From Bacteroidota bacterium (GTDB lineage Bacteria > Bacteroidota > Bacteroidia > JAIBAJ01), in assembly GCA_947475205.1 (NCBI GenBank), contig CANJNG010000006.1, positions 259-64,258 of the forward strand: a stretch of 64,000 bases of DNA. Reading direction: 5' to 3'. Shown here one piece after another: positions 8,654 to 17,303 of the stretch. The notes under the pieces are model-generated. The model ran no database searches, was not told the origin of the DNA, and was given only the letters and a program-made list of their open reading frames with translations. The translations under genes and the position numbers were made by a program. Within the stretch, counting starts at the first letter, position 1. Every line of letters starts with the position of its first letter.

Positions 8654-8661
8654 TACCTTTG
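8654..8661 (+). promoter_or_regulatory. Putative -7 promoter element of the DAB operon
   Basis: TACCTTTG (TAnnTTTG) 10 nt before ATG 8672. Confidence 0.5.
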
Positions 8662-8671
8662 AACTTTCAAA

Positions 8672-9031
8672 ATGAAACTAACCAAAGCAAACTATCTAGC
8701 GTATTTCTTTACGCTTTGCTTTGTTGCCTTACTGGGTTTAAACATATACCGCAATTTTAATCGGTCGGTTCATACCTGGTTTGCTCAATCCTATTCGGTG
8801 TCGCTTCCCACAAACGATAATGACGTTTCGGGCGGTATGGATATAACGTTAGAAGAAACCGAGACCGAAAAAGAAACTGAAAAAGATTCGGATTTAGCCG
8901 ACTTAGCATTTATTCTTCCAAAATTGCTTTATGTTTTTGAACAGAAAGTAATTCATCATTTTTTGGCACACACCCTCGCCGAAAGCACCTCGAACCCCAT
9001 TTATATGCTGGTTCACAACTACCGTATCTGA
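8672..9031 (+). CDS. Small leader-like protein upstream of dabA (hydrophobic N-terminus, acidic cluster, C-terminal HNYRI)
   Basis: 119 aa; same architecture as 13521..13907. Confidence 0.7.
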   Translation: MKLTKANYLAYFFTLCFVALLGLNIYRNFNRSVHTWFAQSYSVSLPTNDNDVSGGMDITLEETETEKETEKDSDLADLAFILPKLLYVFEQKVIHHFLAHTLAESTSNPIYMLVHNYRI

Positions 9032-9144
9032 TTTCTTGTTTGTTTAGGCCGAGATAGCATCTAGGGCTGACTTTGGGTCAATTCTGTGCCCGATTTTCTG
9101 CATTTCACAAACAATTAATCATTCCGTTTCCTTTTTCCTGCTTA

Positions 9145-11646
9145 ATGAATACTTCAAATTCAGTTTTTGATGAACACACCGTTCTCCATGATTTGGGGCA
9201 TTTTCTTCCTGCTCAAAACCCACTCAAGGACTTTATTCATCACAACACACTTCACGCTTTTCAGCACCTGAAGTTTTTTGAAGGCTTAAAACAAGCGAAT
9301 GAAGTATTTGGCTACAAGGTACTTCTCGACATAAGCGAATACCGAGAGCTTTACAATGTAAAGCGAATCAGAAAAGACATTCTTCAGCAAAAGATTATGG
9401 AGAAGAAAGGAAAGGAAAACCTGGATTCATGGTATAAGAAACTCACACATAGCAACTATCCCTTAACCTGGTCCCCAAGGATTGGAAATTTAAGAGCAAG
9501 TTGGAAACGAGAATATTTCATCGACCTTGATTTGATTGTGCAACCTGCACTGTTTCGCACCCTTTGCAGCTATTTGGATCAGGGAATTTCTATCTGGAAT
9601 TTCCCAATTCCCGATTTGGGCTTGATGGCCTCTATTCGTGAATTGGAGCGAAATAGCTATGTGAGTTTCTTTAAAACCCAGCGGGCGAGAGATTTGATGT
9701 TGGCCAACGAAAGTTCCATTACCGATTTACTGAAAATATTGGTTGGCGACGAAACACTTTATTCCCACTACCTCTTCGATCAGCAATTTTCGCATCAGGG
9801 TTGGTCGGGAATGGTAGCCTCCATTGAACGCGAACCGGCAAGTTTGCTCGATACCAAAAAGGTTACCCTTCACGATTTAGTGCTGTTTGAGCTGCTTTTA
9901 GAAATTGATGCCCTCGACAATAAATTTGGGAAAGTATGGGCTCCATTGGCCAATGTAATTAAAGAAAAGCCGCTCGATTTGTTTGCCCCAATTGTGCAAT
10001 CCGAATTGAGCGAAGTGCTTGAAATATGGCAAAATGCTTTTGAATGGACATATTATGACCAAGTATTGGCTGGGCTGCAAGTAAAGACTACACCATCGAA
10101 AACCCCCGAATCAAAAAGTTTCCAGGCGTTTTTCTGTATTGATGACAGGGAATGTTCTCTTCGCCGCTATTTGGAAAATCTCGACCACAATTGCGAAACC
10201 TTTGGCACTCCAGGTTTTTTTGGCGTAGAGTTCTTTTACCGCCCCGAAGACGGCAAGTTTTTAACCAAACTTTGTCCGGCACCCGTTACACCAAAATACC
10301 TTATAACCGAAGGCGGCAACACCCTAAAGCGTGGCACCGAACCGCATTTCACCAAATATACCCATTCCTTATTGGGCGGAATGCTGGTAACACAAACCCT
10401 CGGTTTTTGGGCTGCTGCTCGTTTAGCATTAAATATTTTCCGTCCATCGGCAAGCACTGCAACGGTGTCTTCGTTCAAGCACATGGACAAGTTTTCTAAC
10501 CTTCAAATCGAGAATAAAAGCTTAGATGATAAGTTTGAAGGCTTGCAGGTTGGCTTCACGGTGGAAGAAATGGCCAACCGGGTAGAAGGTGTTTTGCGAA
10601 CCACCGGATTGTTGCAAGAGTTTGCCGATTTGATTTACATAATAGGTCATGGAAGCAGTAGCGTAAACAATCCTCACTATGCAGCCTACGATTGTGGAGC
10701 CTGCTGTGGTCGTCCGGGTTCGGTGAATGCCCGTGTGTTTTCGTTTATGGCTAATCATTTAGAGGTGCGAAAAGTGTTAGCCGGCCGAGGAATAAACATT
10801 CCAGCCTCCACTCAGTTTTTAGGCGGCTTGCACGATACCACCCGCGACGAAATTGTGTTTTATGATGAAAGTAATTTATCGCCTGAAAATTCAATTACTC
10901 ACCTCAAAAACAATCAAATCTTTCGAAAAGCCCTTGACCTAAACGCCAAAGAACGTTCACGCCGTTTCGAGGCTATCGACACCAAACAGTCGGCATCAAA
11001 AATTCACGAACTCATTCGGCGGAGGTCGGTTTCCTTATTCGAGCCCCGTCCCGAACTCAACCACGCCACCAATGCTCTCTGTATAATTGGCCGCCGTGAT
11101 GTGTCGAAGGGTTTGTTTCTCGACAGGCGTTCGTTTATGAATTCTTACGATTACCGCACCGATGGCAACGGGACTTACCTTTTAAACATAATGCGACCTA
11201 TCGGTCCCGTTTGTGGTGGCATAAACTTGGAATATTTCTTTTCCCGGATGGACAACCAAAAGCTGGGAGCAGGAACCAAACTTCCACACAATGTGATGGG
11301 TTTATTTGGTGTGGCCAACGGCACCGATGGAGATTTAAGACCCGGATTACCCAGCCAGATGATTGAAGTGCATGACCCTGTTAGGCTTTTAGTTATTGTG
11401 GAACATTATCCTGAAGTGGTGCTAAGTGTAATCAGCAAAGAAGCGGCAACCTACGAATGGTTTAAAAATGAATGGGTACATATTGCAGCCATTCATCCAG
11501 AAACCAAAGAGCTATTTGTATTTAATGACGGAATCTTTTCGGCTTACAAACCTTTGACCGAAAACGTGGAATTCATCCAAAATGTAGAGTCGGTAGTTGA
11601 ATTGAATCAGGAAAATTGTCCAGTTTATTGCCTAATTGAAAGCTAA
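9145..11646 (+). CDS. dabA: Inorganic carbon pump subunit DabA (DUF2309/UPF0753; MpsB-like)
   Basis: 'FIHHNTLHAF', Zn-site motifs 'FCIDDRE', 'GHGS', 'DCGACCG', 'HDTTRD', 'RPELNHA'; start moved to ATG 9145. Confidence 0.92.
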   Translation: MNTSNSVFDEHTVLHDLGHFLPAQNPLKDFIHHNTLHAFQHLKFFEGLKQANEVFGYKVLLDISEYRELYNVKRIRKDILQQKIMEKKGKENLDSWYKKLTHSNYPLTWSPRIGNLRASWKREYFIDLDLIVQPALFRTLCSYLDQGISIWNFPIPDLGLMASIRELERNSYVSFFKTQRARDLMLANESSITDLLKILVGDETLYSHYLFDQQFSHQGWSGMVASIEREPASLLDTKKVTLHDLVLFELLLEIDALDNKFGKVWAPLANVIKEKPLDLFAPIVQSELSEVLEIWQNAFEWTYYDQVLAGLQVKTTPSKTPESKSFQAFFCIDDRECSLRRYLENLDHNCETFGTPGFFGVEFFYRPEDGKFLTKLCPAPVTPKYLITEGGNTLKRGTEPHFTKYTHSLLGGMLVTQTLGFWAAARLALNIFRPSASTATVSSFKHMDKFSNLQIENKSLDDKFEGLQVGFTVEEMANRVEGVLRTTGLLQEFADLIYIIGHGSSSVNNPHYAAYDCGACCGRPGSVNARVFSFMANHLEVRKVLAGRGINIPASTQFLGGLHDTTRDEIVFYDESNLSPENSITHLKNNQIFRKALDLNAKERSRRFEAIDTKQSASKIHELIRRRSVSLFEPRPELNHATNALCIIGRRDVSKGLFLDRRSFMNSYDYRTDGNGTYLLNIMRPIGPVCGGINLEYFFSRMDNQKLGAGTKLPHNVMGLFGVANGTDGDLRPGLPSQMIEVHDPVRLLVIVEHYPEVVLSVISKEAATYEWFKNEWVHIAAIHPETKELFVFNDGIFSAYKPLTENVEFIQNVESVVELNQENCPVYCLIES

Positions 11647-13514
11647 TGACTACCTTAATCCATACCCTGATTTTCATTCCGCTGATTGGTTTTCTGGTCA
11701 GTCTGCTTATTCCTCAAAAGCAGGAAAGGCTGCTTTCGGGCGTTGCATTCATCACAATCGGCATCCATTTATTTTCCTTCCTTTCTTTTTTAGTTATATG
11801 GATTTTGAATGGCCACCAAACGCTTGATGTAAAAGACGTTTGCCTGTATCGTTCCAAAGAATATGTATTCTTAATTGACTTCTATTTTGACAAAGTAACG
11901 GCGGCCTATATTTTGGTTGGTGCGTTCCTAACCTTTTTGGTTTCCATATATAGCAGGGCTTATCTGCACCGTGAAGTGGGTTTCAAAAGGTTTTTCAATA
12001 CCATTCTTTTTTTCTATCTGGGTTACAATATCGCCATTTTCGCCGGAAACTTTGAAACGCTTTTTATAGGCTGGGAAATGTTGGGAATATCCTCGTTCTT
12101 GCTCATTGCCTTTTACAAAGACCGCTATTTGCCTGTAAAAAATGCCATAAAAGTTTTCTCTGTTTATCGAATTGGCGATGTGGGTTTGCTCCTGGCAATG
12201 TGGGCTAGCCATCATTTGTGGCACGAAAACATTACGTTTCTCGAAATGCACAACCCGGTATTTGTGAGCGACCATCTGCAAAATCACAGCTTTATCGGGG
12301 TATTTATTTCCCTGATGATACTGGTTACAGCAGCGGCTAAGTCGGCACAGCTTCCATTTTCCTCATGGTTGCCACGAGCGATGGAAGGTCCTACGCCTTC
12401 GAGTGCTATTTTTTATGGTTCCCTGTCGGTGCATTTGGGTGTTTTCCTGCTTTTGCGAACACATCCATTTTGGGAAAACCAAACTTCAGTAAAAATTATT
12501 ATCATATTATTAGGATTAACCACCAGCATTGTTACAACCTTAATTGCTCGTGTTCAGTCCACCGTAAAAAGCCAGATAGCCTATTCGTCCGTTGCACAAA
12601 TCGGGCTTATTTTTATTGAAATTGCTTTTGGCTTCGAAACATTGGCTCTGATTCATTTTGCCGGAAATGCCTTCCTTCGCACCTATCAGTTATTGGTTTC
12701 ACCATCGGTAGTGAGCTACCTCATCCGCGAGCAGTTTTTCAAGTTCACACCCCGCCAACTCACTATCGAAGACACCTTCCCCAAAAGGATAGAATATTCG
12801 GTGTATTTGCTCTCGCTGAAAGAGTTTAACCTAGATGCATTTATGAACCGAATTTTATGGAAGCCCCTAAAAGACACCGGTAAAATGCTCGATTTTCTCA
12901 CCATCAAAAGCCTTATTTGGATATTAGTTCCGGCATATTTGGGCGGTTTGTTCGTTTTATTTTATGAAGATTCATTCCCACCTTTACTTATTGGCTATTT
13001 GCCCACCATGTTTTCATTCATAGCTCTCATTTTTGTTTTGAAAGCTTTTTCGGAGCGTAATAGTGTGCGAATGGCTTGGCTGATGGTGATAATGAACCAT
13101 TTTTGGATTGCCTTGGCTATTTCCTTCAACGAACACTTCGACTACACCGAAATTTTGCTATACCTCAGTGGAATAGTTGTAATGGGGACACTGGGATTGT
13201 TCACCCTTAGAAGATTGAAAACTCAGGAAGAATGTGTGGATCTTAATCAATATCACGGCCATTCATTTGAACATCCCAAACTGGCTTTAATGTTCCTTAT
13301 TTGCAGCTTGGGTCTCACTGGATTCCCGATTACGCCTACGTTTATTGGCGAGGATTTAATCTTCAGCCATATTCATAAACATCAATTCTTATTGGCGTTT
13401 TTTGTTTCGAGTAGCTTTATTATTGATGGTTTGGCGGTTATACGCATCTACACCCGGGTTTTTCTCGGGCCACACAACAAACCCTATCACGAAATACCAT
13501 TTAGATCTTCTTAG
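11646..13514 (+). CDS. dabB: Inorganic carbon pump membrane subunit DabB (NuoL/ND5-like; MpsA-like)
   Basis: 'FIGWEMLGISSFLLI', 'RIGD', 'KSAQLPFSSWLPRAMEGPTPSSA'; TAATG overlap with dabA. Confidence 0.88.
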   Translation: MTTLIHTLIFIPLIGFLVSLLIPQKQERLLSGVAFITIGIHLFSFLSFLVIWILNGHQTLDVKDVCLYRSKEYVFLIDFYFDKVTAAYILVGAFLTFLVSIYSRAYLHREVGFKRFFNTILFFYLGYNIAIFAGNFETLFIGWEMLGISSFLLIAFYKDRYLPVKNAIKVFSVYRIGDVGLLLAMWASHHLWHENITFLEMHNPVFVSDHLQNHSFIGVFISLMILVTAAAKSAQLPFSSWLPRAMEGPTPSSAIFYGSLSVHLGVFLLLRTHPFWENQTSVKIIIILLGLTTSIVTTLIARVQSTVKSQIAYSSVAQIGLIFIEIAFGFETLALIHFAGNAFLRTYQLLVSPSVVSYLIREQFFKFTPRQLTIEDTFPKRIEYSVYLLSLKEFNLDAFMNRILWKPLKDTGKMLDFLTIKSLIWILVPAYLGGLFVLFYEDSFPPLLIGYLPTMFSFIALIFVLKAFSERNSVRMAWLMVIMNHFWIALAISFNEHFDYTEILLYLSGIVVMGTLGLFTLRRLKTQEECVDLNQYHGHSFEHPKLALMFLICSLGLTGFPITPTFIGEDLIFSHIHKHQFLLAFFVSSSFIIDGLAVIRIYTRVFLGPHNKPYHEIPFRSS

Positions 13515-13520
13515 AAACTA

Positions 13521-13907
13521 ATGTCTCGCGAAGTAAAAATATCAGACACCATTTTAAACTCTTCCCAATTCATGGGTAAGGGATTCAAAAGCTGCGTTTT
13601 TATTTTACTGTTGGCTTTCCTTAATGTGATAGCTGCAGCAGCCATGTCGGGGAACGGGTCGGGCTATAAGCCAAAGCCAACTTTTAACAAAAACCCTATT
13701 GGATTAGGTTCATTGTTGGTGTTTGAAGAGGACGAAGAGGATAGAATTGAAGATAACATCCACTTTAGCTTTATTCCGAATAAATATGGAATTGAAAATA
13801 TACATTCCTCTTATTCTTTACATAGGCTAAATCTAGGCTATACCCAAATAGTTCCAAATCATTTCCCAAGGAATATTGTCATTTATTTAAGAAATTTAAG
13901 ACTCTGA
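13521..13907 (+). CDS. Small leader-like protein upstream of sulP (hydrophobic segment, acidic cluster, C-terminal RNLRL)
   Basis: 128 aa; start may be the internal Met at 13572; parallels 8672..9031. Confidence 0.65.
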   Translation: MSREVKISDTILNSSQFMGKGFKSCVFILLLAFLNVIAAAAMSGNGSGYKPKPTFNKNPIGLGSLLVFEEDEEDRIEDNIHFSFIPNKYGIENIHSSYSLHRLNLGYTQIVPNHFPRNIVIYLRNLRL

Positions 13908-13986
13908 TTTTTTGTTGGTCTGCTTCTCGTGCTGCACCATTTTGGTGTTTATTATTCAACAAAAACAGTTTTAAAAATTCAATACA

Positions 13987-15600
13987 ATGAAAAACAATTC
14001 AAAAAGATTTATTCCTGCCGATGGTTTGGAAGGTCTAAAACAAAACTTCTCAAAAGATGCCCTTTCCGGGTTCTTAGTATTCTTATTGGCTTTGCCCCTA
14101 AGTTTGGGTATTGCCAAAGCGTCCGATTTTCCCGCCATATTTGGTTTGGTTACAGCTATCATTGGCGGAGTGGTAGTTAGTTTTTTTGCTGGTTCACGTC
14201 TTACGATTAAAGGACCTGCTGCCGGACTTATCGTTATTGCCAGCGGAGCAGTTTCTGCCTTTGGCGGTGGCGAAATAGGTTGGCACCTTGCCCTTGGAGC
14301 CATAGTGGTGGCCGGGCTTATCCAAATTTTATTCGGGGTGTTTAAATTGGGCAAACTGGCCGATTTCTTCCCGGGTGCTGCTATTCACGGAATGCTTGCA
14401 GCTATCGGTATAATCATAATGAGTAAGCAAATTCACAACCTACTGGGTATCGACCCCAAAATGCTGAAGGGCAAAGAACCACTTGAACTTTTGGCTATGA
14501 TTCCGGAAAGTATTATGCATGAAAATGCCCATGTCACCGAAATTGGTGTGGCTTGTTTGCTCTTACTTATTCTGTTTAGCTTTATCAAGAATCAAAAGAT
14601 AAAGAAAATTCCTGCTCCATTAATAGTGTTGGCGGTTGCTATCCCACTTGGACAGGCTTTGCACATCAAAACTGAAGGTGCCGTTGCCAATTTTGCTTTG
14701 GTGAAAGTGGGTAGCATTTTCGATAGCTTTCAAAACGGATTAATCAATGCTGATTTCTCGGGAATTCAATCTTATATGGGTGTTTTTATTGAATATGTGG
14801 TGCTTTTTTCTTTAATCGGAACGTTGGAGTCCTTGCTTACGGCCAAAGCAATTGATGGAATGGACCCATACAAACGCAAATCTGACTTCAATAAAGATGT
14901 TCTTGCGGTTGGAATTGGAAATACGCTTTCAGGACTTCTTGGAGGCTTGCCTATGATTAGTGAAGTGGCCCGTAGTTCGGCCAACGTTAGTAATGGTGCT
15001 GTTACGCGTTGGGCAAACTTCTTCCATGGGATGTTCCTGCTACTTGCTGTATTATTTGCAGTTTCGTTTATTGAGATGATTCCAAATGCCGCCCTTGCTT
15101 CTATGCTTATTTTTGTGGGATATAAATTGGCTAACCCCAAAGAGTTTATTCACATGTGGCAGATAGGCAAAGAGCAGTTTGTGATTTTCACCACTACAAT
15201 TGTTGTTACCCTCGCCACCGATTTGTTGATTGGTGTTGGTACCGGTATTGTATTAAAATTCATTATCCAATTATTGTATGGCACCCCTATAAAAGATTTT
15301 TTCAAGGTAAATATTAAGGTTTCAAATTCAGATGCTAAAAACTATGTGATGAAGGTAAATGGAGCCTTGGTATTCTCGAATATTATAGGATTGAAAACGA
15401 TATTTGCAACTATACCACAAGGCAAAAATGTTTTGGTAGATGTGAGAAATGCCCCCATTGTGGACCATTCCTCTATTATGGCTTTGAATGGTTTGGTGGA
15501 AGATTACAAAGACGGAGGTGGAACCATAGAAGTGGAAGGTTTCAGCAACCACAAACAACTGGGCCACGCCGCTACCTCTACACGGGTGAGGAAGAGGTAG
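13987..15600 (+). CDS. SulP/SLC26 anion (probably bicarbonate) transporter with C-terminal STAS domain
   Basis: 'SGFLVFLLALPLSLGIA', 'IKGPAAGL', 'GLPMISEVARSSAN', STAS-like tail. Confidence 0.93.
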   Translation: MKNNSKRFIPADGLEGLKQNFSKDALSGFLVFLLALPLSLGIAKASDFPAIFGLVTAIIGGVVVSFFAGSRLTIKGPAAGLIVIASGAVSAFGGGEIGWHLALGAIVVAGLIQILFGVFKLGKLADFFPGAAIHGMLAAIGIIIMSKQIHNLLGIDPKMLKGKEPLELLAMIPESIMHENAHVTEIGVACLLLLILFSFIKNQKIKKIPAPLIVLAVAIPLGQALHIKTEGAVANFALVKVGSIFDSFQNGLINADFSGIQSYMGVFIEYVVLFSLIGTLESLLTAKAIDGMDPYKRKSDFNKDVLAVGIGNTLSGLLGGLPMISEVARSSANVSNGAVTRWANFFHGMFLLLAVLFAVSFIEMIPNAALASMLIFVGYKLANPKEFIHMWQIGKEQFVIFTTTIVVTLATDLLIGVGTGIVLKFIIQLLYGTPIKDFFKVNIKVSNSDAKNYVMKVNGALVFSNIIGLKTIFATIPQGKNVLVDVRNAPIVDHSSIMALNGLVEDYKDGGGTIEVEGFSNHKQLGHAATSTRVRKR

Positions 15601-15638
15601 CGATGGTAATTAGGTTTGATCCCTTGGGAGAGGTCATT

Positions 15639-15864
15639 GCACACACAGGGATGACACCTGCACACGCAGGGATGACACCTGCACACGCAGGGATGACACC
15701 TGCACACGCAGGGATGATACCTGCACACGCAGGGACGATACCTGCACACTCAGGGATGACACCTGCACACGCAGGGATGATACCTGCACACGCAGGGACG
15801 ATACCTGCACACGCAGGGATGATACCTGCAAACGCAGGGACGATACCTGCACACGCAGGGATGA
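15639..15864. repeat. Near-perfect 21-bp tandem array (~10.8 units) of a REP/RPE-like palindrome
   Basis: Unit GCACACGCAGGGATGA(C/T)ACCT; hairpin core CCTGC-ACAC-GCAGG spans unit junctions. Confidence 0.95.
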
Positions 15865-15908
15865 AATCTTCGAGCCTGTTTATAAATAAAAACAACCTTT
15901 TAACAAAA

Positions 15909-17303
15909 ATGAAAAAATTAATCATATCCCTCGGCCTGCTATTCAGCTTCGGGACTGTCTTTTCACAAGTAAAAGACCCATCAGCACCCACACCCGTAAA
16001 GGATAAGGATGCCCTTAAATTTAACATCAGCGAAGATGGCACTCGCTATTTTCAAGCTACTTTCCTAAACCAAACCTGGTTAAGGTGGGACCAAAGCAAC
16101 CCTGGCACTACGGTGATGGGCAAACCTGCCGACAACACTTTTGACATTGGGTTGCGACGAACCCGTATTCAGTTGTTTGGGCAAATAACGCCTCGGGTGT
16201 TTCTTTATTTTCAGTTTGGGCAGAACAATTTCAACTATGCCTTTAATGCTAATAATGGTAACCGCAAACTAGCCGCATTTTTTCACGATGCAGTGTGCGA
16301 ATACAGGCTTAGCAAGCATAATGAGCTAAAAGTTGGCGGTGGACTAACCATTGCCAACGGCCTTTCACGCTTTTCGCAACCGAGCATCGGGACCATTATG
16401 ACCCTGGATGTGCCGGTGTTTATTCAGGCAACCGTGGATCAAACCGATGAATTTTCAAGGAAATTAAGCCTGTATGCTCGCGGACAAATTTGGAAAATAG
16501 ATTATCGCTTTGTACTAAGCGACCCTTTCCCAATTACCTCTAGCGGAATTACACCGGCCAAGTTTGGGGCTAATTCCACCTTTGCACAGTTGGGGCACAA
16601 CAAGCAATATCAAGCCTACCTCACCTACAACTTCTTTGAGATGGAAGGCCACACCACGCCCTATATGACCGGAACTTATCTGGGCAACAAAAAGGTGTGG
16701 AACATTGGCGGAGGGGCTATATTCCAAAACAATGCAATGTGGCAAAAGCAGCCCGCAGGCACTTCAGCTGCCGATACCATTAAATATAACCAAATGCTTC
16801 TGCTTTGTGCCGAAACCTACCTAGATATGCCCATCAAGAAAGACCGTGGCGATGCTATTTCGGCGTATTTCGGCTATTTCAATACCAATTATGGCCACAA
16901 CTATTTGCGGTATAACGGCATTATGAACCCCGCTACAGGCCTCAATACCGATGCTGCCAAAACCGCCATTGCCTCCAATGCCTATGGCAATGCCTTACCC
17001 ATGTTTGGCACCGGGCAAGTAGTGTATTCTCAAGTGGGATACCTGATGCCAAAGAAATGGCTTGGCGATAATGGCGGACAATTGATGCCTTATGCCACTT
17101 GGACGTATGCCTGCTACGATAGATTGGCTAAATTGCCTATAAATACCTATGCTATTGGACTAAACTGGTTCATCAAAGGCCACAAAGCAAAGATGACCCT
17201 CGATTATCAGAATCGCCCAACCTATAGTAGCGATAGTGGAGGTAATATCATTTTCGGTCCACGCAAAAGTTGCTTGACTTTGCAGTATCAGATTTTTATT
17301 TAA
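15909..17303 (+). CDS. Putative outer-membrane porin (beta-barrel)
   Basis: Signal peptide MKKLIISLGLLFSFGTVFSQ at 15909; amphipathic strands, 'GLRRTRIQL', C-terminal 'TLQYQIFI'. Confidence 0.75.
   Translation: MKKLIISLGLLFSFGTVFSQVKDPSAPTPVKDKDALKFNISEDGTRYFQATFLNQTWLRWDQSNPGTTVMGKPADNTFDIGLRRTRIQLFGQITPRVFLYFQFGQNNFNYAFNANNGNRKLAAFFHDAVCEYRLSKHNELKVGGGLTIANGLSRFSQPSIGTIMTLDVPVFIQATVDQTDEFSRKLSLYARGQIWKIDYRFVLSDPFPITSSGITPAKFGANSTFAQLGHNKQYQAYLTYNFFEMEGHTTPYMTGTYLGNKKVWNIGGGAIFQNNAMWQKQPAGTSAADTIKYNQMLLLCAETYLDMPIKKDRGDAISAYFGYFNTNYGHNYLRYNGIMNPATGLNTDAAKTAIASNAYGNALPMFGTGQVVYSQVGYLMPKKWLGDNGGQLMPYATWTYACYDRLAKLPINTYAIGLNWFIKGHKAKMTLDYQNRPTYSSDSGGNIIFGPRKSCLTLQYQIFI

What the first reader, a model, noticed from the sequence alone, without database searches (positions are those of the whole stretch)
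8654..13987. Paired leader ORFs before dabA and sulP: candidate ribosome-stalling attenuators of inorganic-carbon uptake
Seen: ORFs 8672..9031 and 13521..13907 share a plan of hydrophobic signal/TM segment, acidic cluster (EETETEKETEKD; EEDEEDRIED) and similar C-termini (IYMLVHNYRI-stop; IVIYLRNLRL-stop). Both end in TGA inside a 13/14-identical stretch, TCTGATTT(C/T)TTGTT (9027-9040; 13903-13916). Each precedes a transporter gene by ~80-115 nt. Established: SecM, MifM and CruR-type leaders combine an N-terminal targeting segment with a C-terminal arrest motif, and TnaC arrests at its stop codon. Inference: an N-x-R-(I/L)-UGA termination-arrest leader family coupling DAB and SulP expression to CO2/HCO3-, pH, metal or membrane-export state. 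I know of no description of this system.
Basis: partly seen in the sequence, partly recalled or inferred. Interest (0 to 1): 0.82.

Follow-up and report, generated by a model that had tools for sequence, protein, structure and literature searches.

The report
Exported leader peptides before carbon-uptake genes
The two small genes in front of dabA and sulP belong to an undescribed Bacteroidota family of small exported peptides with a conserved tail that ends at the stop codon, and they most likely act as built-in regulatory leaders for the operons behind them, though this has not been shown experimentally.

Summary
ORFs 8672..9031 and 13521..13907 are real genes under purifying selection. They belong to an uncurated Bacteroidota family: 282 representatives at 50% identity, and no Pfam or NCBIfam match. 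The plan is a signal peptide, an acidic cluster 46-60 residues from the end, a hydrophobic patch, and the tail P-I-Y-(L/I)-x-V-(C/R/H)-N-F-R-I.

A family ORF is the promoter-proximal cistron in 45 of 80 Bacteroidota dabA loci. Family ORFs also sit before sulP and, in two genomes, before ureABC. A profile comparison shows that the same tail ends the HYC_CC_PP family, which heads metal-transport operons.

Where the tail abuts the stop codon, TAA is depleted and TGA enriched (28 of 48 clusters against an 18.5% background). TGA is followed by T in 27 of 30 cases. UGA is therefore preferred, not obligatory; the same-genus genomes use TAG.

The intergenic spacers are more structured than shuffled sequence and are enriched in terminator-like hairpins. 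The downstream start sites are not predicted to be sequestered.

My best reading (confidence about 0.5) is a cis-acting leader that pauses at termination, analogous to CruR/CutF but with a new tail and a new sensory segment. The main rival is a trans-acting small envelope protein. Ribosome stalling itself is untested.

The parts
8654..8661 (+). TACCTTTG, which matches the Bacteroidota -7 promoter box TAnnTTTG, 11 nt before the ORF1 ATG. It is the likely promoter of the whole unit.
   Evidence: this is the only + strand match between 8455 and 9921, and neither spacer has one; the same box lies within 120 nt upstream of the small ORF in 24 of 45 related loci, against 1 of 45 in the spacer. The consensus itself is recalled, not taken from a call.
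8672..9031 (+). Leader ORF1, 119 aa. Hydrophobic signal/TM segment (helix 2-38), disordered acidic segment, helix 74-105, conserved tail, TGA stop.
   Evidence: AF2 pLDDT 69.9, pTM 0.31; family profile E 1.8e-20; representative search, E 2.9e-16.
8852..8893 (+). Acidic cluster of ORF1 (E61-D74: EETETEKETEKDSD), 46-59 residues from the C-terminus.
   Evidence: In the family, acidic residues make up 35-46% of positions -46 to -60.
8993..9031 (+). Tail NPIYMLVHNYRI plus the TGA stop (9029-9031), followed by T.
9032..9144 (+). 113-nt spacer. In the predicted structure the 15 nt from the stop codon onward pair with ACAAACAA about 30 nt before the dabA ATG. The start region itself is unpaired.
   Evidence: pairing of the first 15 nt 0.84, z 2.2; start region 0.09, z -3.6. 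No Rfam match.
9145..11646 (+). dabA.
   Evidence: PF10070, E 1e-214.
11646..13514 (+). dabB (NuoL/Mrp-like membrane subunit).
13521..13907 (+). Leader ORF2, 128 aa (or 111 aa from 13572). It starts 6 nt after dabB, so it is an internal leader on the same transcript. Acidic cluster at 13725-13754; tail NIVIYLRNLRL and TGA at 13869-13907.
   Evidence: (profile E 8.7e-13). The same arrangement is seen in L027.
13908..13986 (+). 79-nt spacer. The stem TTTTTGTTG...CAACAAAAA begins 1 nt after the stop. Inside it is the small hairpin GCACCATTTTGGTGT with a T-rich tail.
   Evidence: (pairing 0.67, z 1.5).
13987..15600 (+). SulP-family anion transporter. The substrate is not established; bicarbonate is inferred from context.
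   Evidence: DauA, sulP and BicA models all score below their cut-offs.

Best explanation
ORF1 and ORF2 are cis-acting regulatory leader peptides. They belong to a Bacteroidota class that is functionally analogous to CruR/CutF and SecM/VemP but is not homologous to them.

Proposed course of events (inferred, not shown):
1. The transcript starts just upstream of ORF1.
2. The nascent leader is targeted to the Sec/YidC pathway by its N-terminal signal segment.
3. When the ribosome reaches the end of the ORF, the tail P-I-Y-L-x-V-x-N-F-R-I fills the upper exit tunnel. This slows peptide release at the adjacent stop codon, which is preferentially UGA-U, an RF2-only codon.
4. At that moment the hydrophobic patch (-36 to -45) and the acidic cluster (-46 to -60) lie at the ribosome-translocon junction. 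How readily they are pulled across the membrane sets how long the ribosome stays. That could depend on membrane potential, pH or cation binding.
5. Ribosome dwell time at the stop then determines what happens in the structured spacer. The ribosome could disturb the stem that starts right after the stop, or the terminator-like hairpins, and so allow transcription or translation to proceed into dabAB. ORF2 would do the same for sulP.

Shown here: family membership, operon position, peptide-level selection on the tail, selection on the stop codon, a structured spacer, and a tail shared with metal-operon leaders.

Inferred: stalling, its release by export, the signal that is sensed, and the read-out.
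For: Position:
- 46 of 46 family ORFs found in 80 dabA loci are co-directional. 44 lie directly before dabA. One (L037) has a single ORF between it and dabA. One lies directly before sulP.
- Loci found from the tail motif, not from dabA or sulP: 3 of 4 lie before dabA and 1 of 4 before sulP.
- Two related ORFs head ureABC.
- The -7 promoter box is upstream of the small ORF in 24 of 45 loci, against 1 of 45 in the spacer.
- Genes upstream of the leader are unrelated to one another.

Peptide-level selection:
- The penultimate Arg is encoded by AGA 14, CGT 6, CGA 4, CGC 2, CGG 1.
- pN/pS is 0.13 in the last 12 codons, against 0.43 in the middle and 0.48 at the N-terminus.

Stop codon:
- The tail abuts the stop in 129 of 147 representatives.
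- For tail-abutting ORFs, weighted by cluster, TGA accounts for 28.25, TAA 10.25 and TAG 9.5 of 48. The background is TGA 18.5% and TAA 64% (binomial p about 1e-9 for each).
- Members whose tail does not abut the stop use TAA in 8 of 11 clusters.
- TGA is followed by T in 27 of 30 cases, against 18 of 35 in the background.

Shared module:
- hhalign of this family against HYC_CC_PP aligns only the 13-column tail (probability 92%, E 6e-7).
- HYC_CC_PP genes precede RND pumps (8), HMA proteins (8), TonB receptors (3), HMBD proteins (2) and a P-type ATPase (1) in 29 loci. They have the same promoter and spacer layout.
- The same tail therefore serves unrelated operons, while the middle segment tracks the type of operon.

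Other evidence:
- There is no globular fold (pTM 0.31).
- The acidic cluster keeps a fixed distance from the C-terminus (55.8 +/- 3.9 aa), unlike its distance from the N-terminus (67.4 +/- 9.1).
- Spacers are structured: MFE z averages -2.33 and is negative in 46 of 47. Terminator-like hairpins occur in 24 of 51 spacers, against 6.1 +/- 2.3 in shuffles.
- In leaderless dabA loci, 8 of the 33 upstream ORFs scanned (34 such loci) encode a histidine kinase or a LytTR regulator.

Precedents read:
- CruR (PMC9426467, passages).
- CutF (bioRxiv 10.1101/2025.02.05.636593, abstract and discussion).
- Stop-codon arrest uORFs in Bacteroidota (PMC10987492, passages).
- Membrane potential pulling acidic residues and releasing SecM arrest (review PMC6028853, passages).
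Against: - No stalling, toeprint, Ribo-seq or expression data exist. No RNA run was listed.
- The tail contains no Pro-Pro, RAPP or other proven arrest motif.
- 14 of 59 DAB-type members carry 2-8 residues after the motif and use TAA at about the background rate (11 of 14). Three members (two of them in that group) have spacers of only 23-31 nt with no predicted structure (L077, L090, L092). A stop-codon mechanism cannot be universal.
- The downstream start regions are predicted to be open, not sequestered (mean z -0.42; W_dab 0.09). Pairing of the 15 nt from the stop codon onward is not general (mean z +0.39). It is strong only in the six loci of this genus and about eight others.
- The terminator criteria were loose, and the window scan found no excess (14 found against 11.5 expected).
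- Purifying selection outside the tail (pN/pS 0.43-0.48) also fits a working protein.
- UGA-U is, from recall of E. coli data, a relatively efficient UGA context. This sits badly with a simple 'weak stop' reading.
- Clustering at 40% identity only partly removes phylogenetic dependence.
- L066, which is included in several counts, is not a profile hit.
Confidence: 0.5

Rival explanations
1. The small ORFs encode trans-acting small envelope proteins, exported or membrane-anchored, that work as an accessory subunit, chaperone, ion or metal handler, or regulator. The conserved tail would then be a protein-protein contact or a degradation tag, for example a hydrophobic-x-hydrophobic C-terminus read by a PDZ protease.
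For: - The whole ORF is under purifying selection (dN/dS 0.16-0.41).
- There is a signal peptide and a second predicted helix.
- Operon membership is conserved.
- The last three residues are hydrophobic-x-hydrophobic. Resemblance to class II PDZ ligands is recalled, not from a call.
- HYC_CC_PP relatives carry invariant Cys and Pro motifs, as metal-binding proteins might.
Against: - The same tail heads operons with no common product: DAB, SulP, cytoplasmic urease, RND pumps, TonB receptors, a P-type ATPase. One shared partner would not give operon specificity.
- There is no globular fold (pTM 0.31).
- Selection on the identity of the stop codon and on the base after it has no reason under a pure protein-function model.
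- The ORF is always the first cistron and is never found downstream or apart from an operon in the loci examined.
Confidence: 0.3
2. The tail is a C-terminal sorting, anchoring or processing signal for small secreted proteins of Bacteroidota, unrelated to gene regulation.
For: - The motif sits at the extreme C-terminus in 129 of 147 representatives.
- It is found here only in Bacteroidota sequences. All 80 dabA loci are Bacteroidota records by their titles apart from two binned under odd names.
- An N-terminal signal peptide is present.
Against: - At twelve residues, with no transmembrane stretch or basic end, it is shorter than the sorting signals I recall (LPXTG, PEP-CTERM and the type IX C-terminal domain).
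- This reading does not explain the TAA depletion, the UGA-U preference, the fixed operon-leading position or the structured spacers.
Confidence: 0.1
3. The real element is at the nucleic-acid level, such as a riboswitch, attenuator RNA or promoter overlapping the ORF end, and the peptide conservation is a by-product. Alternatively, the ORFs are chance frames.
For: - The spacers are structured and hairpins with T-rich tails are enriched.
- ATT-TGA contains TTTG, which is the recalled -33 box.
- The 13/14 nt identity within the window.
Against: - Synonymous codon turnover in the tail, including CGN/AGR switches.
- pN/pS is 0.13 in the tail, with pS 0.55.
- No Rfam match at E <= 1.
- The -7 box is nearly absent from the spacers (1 of 45 and 3 of 29).
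- The nucleotide stretch after the stop is not conserved in the same-genus genomes.
- The family profile recovers 282 representatives.
Confidence: 0.05

Closest known systems
CruR (Bordetella pertussis) and CutF (Rhodobacter capsulatus), DUF2946 family uORF proteins
   Same: - Small first-cistron ORFs with an N-terminal signal peptide, a sensory motif in the middle, and a conserved motif at or near the C-terminus.
- Poorly structured.
- They head operons of related physiology.
- The spacing between the two motifs matters.
- The read-out is through the spacer: Rho termination for CruR, and a stem-loop over the RBS for CutF.
Sources: PMC9426467 passages; bioRxiv 10.1101/2025.02.05.636593 abstract and discussion.
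   Different: - No DUF2946 match.
- No CXXC/CXXXC motif and no RAPP/PPP motif.
- The tail ends exactly at the stop codon.
- The middle segment is acidic.
- The downstream genes are for inorganic-carbon uptake or urease, not copper.
- The phylum is one in which Cu-related RAPP uORFs were reported not to be found (PMC12992588 passage).
HYC_CC_PP family (NCBIfam NF047658)
   Same: - The same C-terminal tail (hhalign probability 92% over 13 columns).
- The same size, signal peptide, promoter-proximal position, structured spacer and TGA preference.
- The window's own genome has one on contig C188, ending APIYLLDRVFRI-TGA-T.
   Different: - ORF1 and ORF2 do not match the NF047658 model.
- They lack the HYC, CC and PP motifs.
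- HYC_CC_PP genes precede metal-transport genes.
- A full-text search found no paper naming the family.
SecM, VemP and MifM (monitoring substrates of Sec/YidC)
   Same: - N-terminal export or membrane segment plus a C-terminal conserved motif, about 95-170 aa in all.
- They sit upstream of the regulated gene.
- Release is by pulling force during export.
These features are recalled; the general model is also in the passages.
   Different: - The downstream genes here are not secretion machinery.
- The downstream start site is not predicted to be sequestered.
- The tail sequence is unrelated.
Bacteroidota uORFs with NSP-stop, NAP-stop and DGMK-stop ends (Fujiwara et al. 2024)
   Same: - Found in the same phylum.
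- Arrest occurs with the stop codon in the A site and depends on the stop codon (PMC10987492 passages). This shows that Bacteroidota ribosomes can use termination-stage arrest.
   Different: - Those lie upstream of secA/secDF and end in Pro or Lys.
- The present tail ends in R-I.
- Their supplementary sequence lists could not be read, so overlap with this family cannot be fully excluded.
TnaC (E. coli)
   Same: Termination-stage arrest at a UGA codon, with an aromatic residue roughly 9-12 positions from the peptidyl-transferase centre (recalled).
   Different: - TnaC has 24 residues, no export signal, and is induced by free tryptophan.
- Its read-out is Rho-dependent.
- No sequence similarity was seen.

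Membership tests
Regulatory arrest-peptide leaders (functional class: SecM, MifM, VemP, CruR, CutF) | ORF directly upstream of, and co-transcribed with, the regulated gene | tested here: met
   46 of 46 family ORFs are co-directional and upstream. The promoter box is upstream in 24 of 45 loci, against 1 of 45 in the spacer. In the window the box is at 8654-8661 and neither spacer has one. Co-transcription itself is inferred.
Regulatory arrest-peptide leaders (functional class) | N-terminal signal peptide or membrane segment | tested here: met
   A hydrophobic segment lies near the N-terminus in 44 of 45 listed members. AF2 predicts helix 2-38 with pLDDT 84-98. No dedicated signal-peptide predictor was available.
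Regulatory arrest-peptide leaders (functional class) | Conserved C-terminal motif while the rest diverges | tested here: met
   pN/pS is 0.13 in the last 12 codons against 0.43-0.48 elsewhere. Position profile. Mean column identity of the family alignment is 16%.
Regulatory arrest-peptide leaders (functional class) | Demonstrated ribosome stalling (peptidyl-tRNA accumulation, toeprint) | not testable with these tools
   No RNA or Ribo-seq run was listed. The only indirect sign is stop-codon selection.
Regulatory arrest-peptide leaders (functional class) | Downstream expression depends on the stall in cis, through a spacer structure, Rho or a terminator | tested here: inconclusive
   Spacers are structured (z -2.33) and terminator-like hairpins are enriched (24 of 51 against 6.1). 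The start regions are open, and pairing of the 15 nt from the stop codon onward is not general.
DUF2946 (PF11162; CruR/CutF) | Match to the Pfam model | tested here: not met
   No Pfam family for ORF1 or ORF2 at E <= 0.1. None for 43 members at E <= 0.01 beyond two chance singletons. The ESM Atlas nearest named cluster, DUF2946/CzcI at 0.91, is only a lead.
DUF2946 (PF11162; CruR/CutF) | CXXC/CXXXC copper motif and C-terminal RAPP or PPP motif | tested here: not met
   Neither motif is present in the ORF1 or ORF2 sequences.
HYC_CC_PP (NF047658) | Score over the NCBIfam cut-off; invariant HYC, CC and PP motifs | tested here: not met
   No NCBIfam hit for ORF1 or ORF2 or for 43 members. The motifs are absent. 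Only the tail is shared.
Bacteroidota NSP-stop / NAP-stop / DGMK-stop uORFs | C-terminal N-S-P, N-A-P or D-G-M-K directly before the stop; located upstream of secA or secDF | tested here: not met
   The ends are NYRI and NLRL and the downstream genes are dabA and sulP. The feature 'motif directly before the stop' is shared.
DAB inorganic-carbon pump operon (dabA-dabB) | Adjacent DabA (PF10070) and NuoL/Mrp-like DabB | tested here: met
   DabA E 1e-214, Proton_antipo_M E 4.4e-40. The two genes overlap by one base.

The most novel reading that the evidence does not exclude
Bacteroidota have a modular class of exported 'sensor-leader' peptides. A common C-terminal module (P-I-Y-L-x-V-x-N-F-R-I followed by UGA-U) delays RF2-dependent release. 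Interchangeable middle segments set what is sensed: a Cys-rich segment in HYC_CC_PP for metals, and an acidic cluster plus hydrophobic patch in the family described here.

In the acidic version, the cluster sits about 46-60 residues from the peptidyl-transferase centre when the ribosome reaches the stop, so it would lie in or at the translocon. Its electrophoretic pull by the membrane potential, or its protonation or cation binding, would release the pause. Expression of DAB, SulP and urease would then be tuned directly to membrane energisation or external pH and carbonate chemistry, without any protein transcription factor.
Probability: 0.2. Interest if true: 0.9.

Novelty: new variant of a known kind. 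Interest (0 to 1): 0.78.

Why it matters
- **Regulation of DAB pumps.** DAB pumps and SulP transporters supply bicarbonate to many heterotrophs as well as autotrophs. How they are regulated outside model autotrophs is largely unknown.
- **Extension of a known principle.** A leader peptide that is exported and read out at its own stop codon would carry the CruR/CutF principle to a new phylum, a new arrest sequence and a new class of signal. Published surveys did not find Cu-related RAPP uORFs in Bacteroidota.
- **A function for HYC_CC_PP.** The link to HYC_CC_PP suggests a regulatory role for a family present in 61 of 101 sampled genomes of the class. That tally includes one unpublished genome, G540, none of whose sequence was used.
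- **Ribosome and translation studies.** It would give workers on Bacteroidota, whose translation initiation is unusual, a natural termination-stage pause sequence with a marked UGA-U preference.
- **Annotation.** If the trans-acting rival is right instead, the family is still a new, uncurated and widely conserved envelope protein of carbon-uptake operons.

Tried and rejected
**Searches that missed relatives**
- Direct BLASTP of ORF1 against ORF2 gave nothing (E 20). Homology only appeared through profiles.
- Single-protein searches of 40 relatives found no homologue of ORF1 and only two weak chance-level hits for ORF2. The family evolves too fast for that approach. Neighbourhood inspection found the same-genus copies.
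- The search for homologous proteins with the six-sequence alignment returned only genus-level proteins (9 hits).
- The A2 profile on 400 phylum genomes gave only one further full-length hit. Only 11 candidates per genome were scored, so this is not evidence of rarity.

**Urease**
- ureA was found in 2 of 301 class genomes, and neither has a leader. The urease link therefore rests on two genomes of one family.

**Structure and RNA-element checks**
- SecM-like RBS sequestration is not supported.
- A general stem involving the 15 nt from the stop codon onward is not supported across the family (mean z 0.39).
- The sigma-70 promoter and terminator scan of the window showed no excess.
- Covariation analysis of seven close spacers gave one small hairpin with a few compensatory changes, which is too little to build on.
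- Rfam gave no match. PDB sequence searches gave no match below E 0.1.

**Alternative readings of the UGA signal**
- SECIS or read-through of the UGA is rejected. Homologues use TAG or TAA at the same place, and by direct reading the frame closes within about 10 codons (11 for ORF1).
- A promoter -33 box inside ATT-TGA is rejected, because the matching -7 box is missing from the spacers.

**Tools and data not available or not used**
- RNA evidence: no RNA holder was listed.
- Supplementary files of the papers were not opened. The uORF lists of PMC10987492 and PMC12992588 could contain members of this family. I searched the full text only for 'HYC_CC_PP' (0 papers), 'arrest peptide'+Bacteroidetes+upstream, DabA+DabB+Bacteroidetes and 'arrest peptides'+Bacteroidota. 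No description of this family turned up.

Full report
**1. What is in the window**

The ORF listing and the raw sequence show ORF1 at 8672..9031 (119 aa) and ORF2 at 13521..13907 (128 aa; a later ATG lies at 13572).
- Both have a basic and hydrophobic N-terminus.
- Both have an acidic cluster: E61-D74 in ORF1 and E69-D78 in ORF2.
- They end NPIYMLVHNYRI-TGA and NIVIYLRNLRL-TGA.
- The 14-mers at 9027-9040 and 13903-13916 are 13/14 identical.

The genes behind them are:
- dabA (9145..11646; PF10070, E 1e-214);
- dabB (11646..13514);
- a SulP-family transporter (13987..15600; PF00916, E 6e-67).

ORF2 starts 6 nt after dabB. The two ORFs do not resemble each other by BLASTP. Neither matches Pfam or NCBIfam.

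**2. The ORFs are conserved**

The two other genomes of the genus (DabA only 59-61% identical) carry small ORFs in the same places.
- Before dabA the ORFs end ...YLDIRVLRI and ...FLQIRVIRI.
- Before sulP both end ...FIELRVLRI.
- All four have a hydrophobic N-terminus and an acidic cluster (alignment A1).
- They stop with TAG, and the bases after the stop differ from those in the window.

I then fetched 80 Bacteroidota dabA loci and read the frames upstream. A 43-sequence alignment (A2) was turned into a profile.
- The profile finds a family ORF in 45 of the 80 loci. That is 46 ORFs, of which 37 were in the profile and 9 were not.
- All 46 are on the dabA strand.
- 44 lie directly before dabA.
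- One (L037) lies between two dabA copies, with a 208-aa ORF in between.
- One (the second copy in L027) lies between dabB and sulP, exactly as in the window.

A scan of metagenome contigs seeded with the tail motif, not with dabA or sulP, gave 4 loci: 3 before dabA and 1 before sulP.

The only other full-length hit in a 400-genome phylum sample is an ORF ending APRYILYHSLQIAGC, 150 nt before ureA-ureB-ureC. A second genus of that family has the same arrangement.

In the window's own genome the profile finds only ORF1 and ORF2.

Against 1.84 billion representatives it finds 282 proteins at E <= 0.001 and 16 at E <= 1e-10. Of the 147 new ones listed:
- 109 end in [RK][ILVM];
- 20 end in hydrophobic/x-[ILV];
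- 18 end otherwise.

None of the 43 aligned members matches a curated family. No solved structure is related.

**3. Anatomy**

Counted from the C-terminus in 115 non-redundant members whose tail abuts the stop:

| Position | Content |
|---|---|
| -11 | P, 86% |
| -10 | I or L |
| -9 | aromatic, 98% |
| -8 | L or I |
| -6 | V or I |
| -5 | C, R or H |
| -4 | N, 61% |
| -3 | F, I or L |
| -2 | R, 83% |
| -1 | I, 86% |
| -12 to -35 | polar linker |
| -36 to -45 | hydrophobic patch |
| -46 to -60 | 35-46% acidic residues |
| -61 to about -90 | polar stretch |
| from about -91 towards the N-terminus | signal segment |

The centre of the acidic cluster lies 55.8 +/- 3.9 residues from the C-terminus but 67.4 +/- 9.1 from the N-terminus. 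This is for 51 ORFs, including L066, which is not a profile hit.

AlphaFold2 with the family alignment gives an N-terminal helix, a disordered acidic stretch, a second helix at 74-105 of moderate confidence, and no globular fold (pLDDT 69.9, pTM 0.31).

**4. They are translated, and the tail is selected as a peptide**

- In 27 ORFs ending [RK][ILV], the Arg codon is AGA 14, CGT 6, CGA 4, CGC 2 and CGG 1.
- In 12 close pairs, dN/dS of the small ORF is 0.16-0.41, against 0.04-0.10 for the adjacent dabA.
- Pooled pN/pS is 0.48 for the first 30 codons, 0.43 for the middle and 0.13 for the last 12 codons.

**5. The stop codon is selected too**

Long ORFs in the same loci end in TAA 121, TGA 35 and TAG 33. 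I took 88 tail-bearing ORFs (59 of the DAB type and 29 HYC_CC_PP) and clustered them at 40% identity into 65 clusters.

| Group | Clusters | TGA | TAA | TAG |
|---|---|---|---|---|
| DAB-type, tail abuts stop | 28 | 14.25 | 7.25 | 6.5 |
| HYC_CC_PP, tail abuts stop | 20 | 14 | 3 | 3 |
| DAB-type, tail does not abut stop | 11 | 2 | 8 | 1 |

- Together, 28 of 48 tail-abutting clusters use TGA, against 18.5% expected. 10 of 48 use TAA, against 64% expected. The binomial p is about 1e-9 for each.
- The base after TGA is T in 27 of 30 tail-abutting ORFs, against 18 of 35 in the background.
- In the window's own genome all three tail-bearing ORFs read (A/C)TC-TGA-TTT, while TGA ends 16% of long ORFs.

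**6. The tail is shared with HYC_CC_PP**

A regular-expression scan of the genome turned up a third ORF, on contig C188, ending APIYLLDRVFRI. It matches NCBIfam NF047658, HYC_CC_PP.
- That family occurs in 61 of 101 sampled genomes of the class (this tally includes the unpublished G540).
- Its members end in tails such as PPVYLLNCIFLI, PPIYLNHRVLII and DIPVFVQSFLI.
- hhalign of A2 against a 19-sequence HYC_CC_PP alignment aligns only the 13 tail columns (probability 92%, E 6e-7).

The genes directly downstream in 29 loci (L121 left out) match these families, as members matching each Pfam family, so one protein can count under more than one:
- RND pumps, 8;
- HMA-domain proteins, 8;
- TonB-dependent receptors, 3;
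- HMBD proteins, 2;
- a P-type ATPase, 1;
- others.

The same tail therefore heads operons with unrelated products, while the middle segment differs with the type of operon.

**7. Operon layout**

- The Bacteroidota -7 box TAnnTTTG (consensus recalled) lies within 120 nt upstream of the small ORF in 24 of 45 loci, mostly 10-40 nt before the ATG. It lies in the spacer to dabA in 1 of 45, over similar total lengths.
- For HYC_CC_PP the figures are 17 of 29 and 3 of 29.
- In the window the box is at 8654-8661, and neither spacer has one.
- Genes upstream of the leader are unrelated to one another: MOSC, MatE, UvrD, LepA and so on. No histidine kinase or response regulator is among the 25 families listed for 39 loci; 28 singleton families were not shown.
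- In the 34 dabA loci without a leader, 33 upstream ORFs could be scanned. 6 of them are histidine kinases, 2 are LytTR regulators, 3 are SulP and 2 are beta-carbonic anhydrases.

**8. The spacers**

- 47 spacers of 60-260 nt have an MFE z of -2.33 on average against dinucleotide shuffles, and 46 of 47 are negative. Four spacers were dropped for length.
- Hairpins with a T-rich tail occur in 24 of 51 spacers, against 6.1 +/- 2.3 (maximum 10) in 50 mononucleotide shuffles. For HYC_CC_PP the figures are 9 of 29 against 3.5 +/- 1.6.
- The start region of the downstream gene tends to be unpaired (mean z -0.42).
- Pairing of the 15 nt from the stop codon onward is not general (mean z +0.39). It is strong in all six loci of this genus (z 1.5-2.8), where different sequences form a stem that begins within a few bases of the stop.
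- No Rfam family matches.

**9. Reading**

Taken together, these observations fit a cis-acting leader better than a free-standing protein:
- the fixed first-cistron position;
- a tail selected as a peptide and placed exactly at a stop codon that is itself selected;
- a tail shared across operons with unrelated products;
- a middle segment held at a fixed distance from the end;
- no globular fold;
- a structured spacer.

The published precedents are close in plan:
- CruR and CutF have a signal peptide, a Cys motif, and a C-terminal RAPP or PPP motif, and their read-out is by Rho or a stem-loop.
- Bacteroidota uORFs before secA and secDF arrest with the stop codon in the A site.
- A proteome survey reports Cu-related RAPP uORFs in many lineages but not in Bacteroidota.
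- A review reports that membrane potential moves acidic residues through SecYEG and thereby releases SecM arrest.

The position of the acidic cluster, 46-60 residues from the end, would place it at the translocon when the ribosome reaches the stop. That geometry rests on recalled tunnel lengths and is an inference.

I put the cis-leader reading at about 0.5. The trans-acting small envelope protein is at about 0.3, a sorting or processing signal at about 0.1, and an RNA-only or chance explanation at about 0.05.

**10. Limits**

- No stalling or expression data exist.
- The tail has no proven arrest motif.
- 14 of 59 DAB-type members extend beyond the motif and use TAA normally, and a few members have very short, unstructured spacers.
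- The read-out in the spacer is unresolved.
- The statistics are only partly corrected for relatedness.
- The urease link rests on two genomes.

Noticed in passing
window 15638-15864: A tandem repeat of 21 nt, 10.8 copies, 93% matches, lies between sulP and the next gene. In the 566-aa frame 15603..17303 it reads as repeated AHAGM(T/I)P heptads ahead of what looks like the true signal peptide (MKKLIISLGLLF...). The opposite strand is also open.
   Followed up: partly
window 15603-17303; L010:1-1458 (minus); L015, L045, L052, L056, L078 upstream of dabA: A porin-like outer-membrane ORF with no Pfam match, ending ...LQYQIF(I/F), recurs next to sulP in genome G001. It lies directly upstream of dabA in several loci that lack the leader. 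It may be an envelope partner of the carbon-uptake unit.
   Followed up: partly
G000 contig C188:4661-5044 (L123:1498-1881): The window's own genome has one HYC_CC_PP gene ending APIYLLDRVFRI-TGA-TTT. It sits 114 nt before a gene for a secreted protein with a type IX sorting tail; two downstream proteins in the 29-locus set match Por_Secre_tail. The contig ends inside that gene.
   Followed up: partly
L095:1495-1860 and L104:1480-1851: These are urease-linked relatives of the family. They have a signal peptide and an acidic stretch, end in P(R/K)YILYHSLQIA(G/Y)C with a TAA stop, and lie 100-150 nt before ureA-ureB-ureC. Two other urease operons in the class sample have no such ORF.
   Followed up: partly
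upstream of the small ORFs in L014-L092 and L105-L134: The TAnnTTTG box often starts only 9-30 nt before the ATG of the small ORF. If the box is the -7 element, many of these leaders would have very short 5' untranslated regions.
   Followed up: no
L082 versus L087: The dabA genes of this pair are close (pS 0.22, pN 0.023), but their leaders are far apart (pN 0.385, pS 0.78). This suggests replacement or very fast divergence of the leader alone.
   Followed up: no
L037:1-5496: There are two dabA copies in tandem. A leader ending TNPIYISVCNFRI-TAA and a 208-aa ORF of unknown function lie between them.
   Followed up: no
L021, L070, L072, L076, L086, L093 and two LytTR loci: dabA loci without a leader often have a histidine kinase or a LytTR response regulator directly upstream (8 of 33 upstream ORFs scanned). 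This hints that two alternative control devices occupy the same position.
   Followed up: partly
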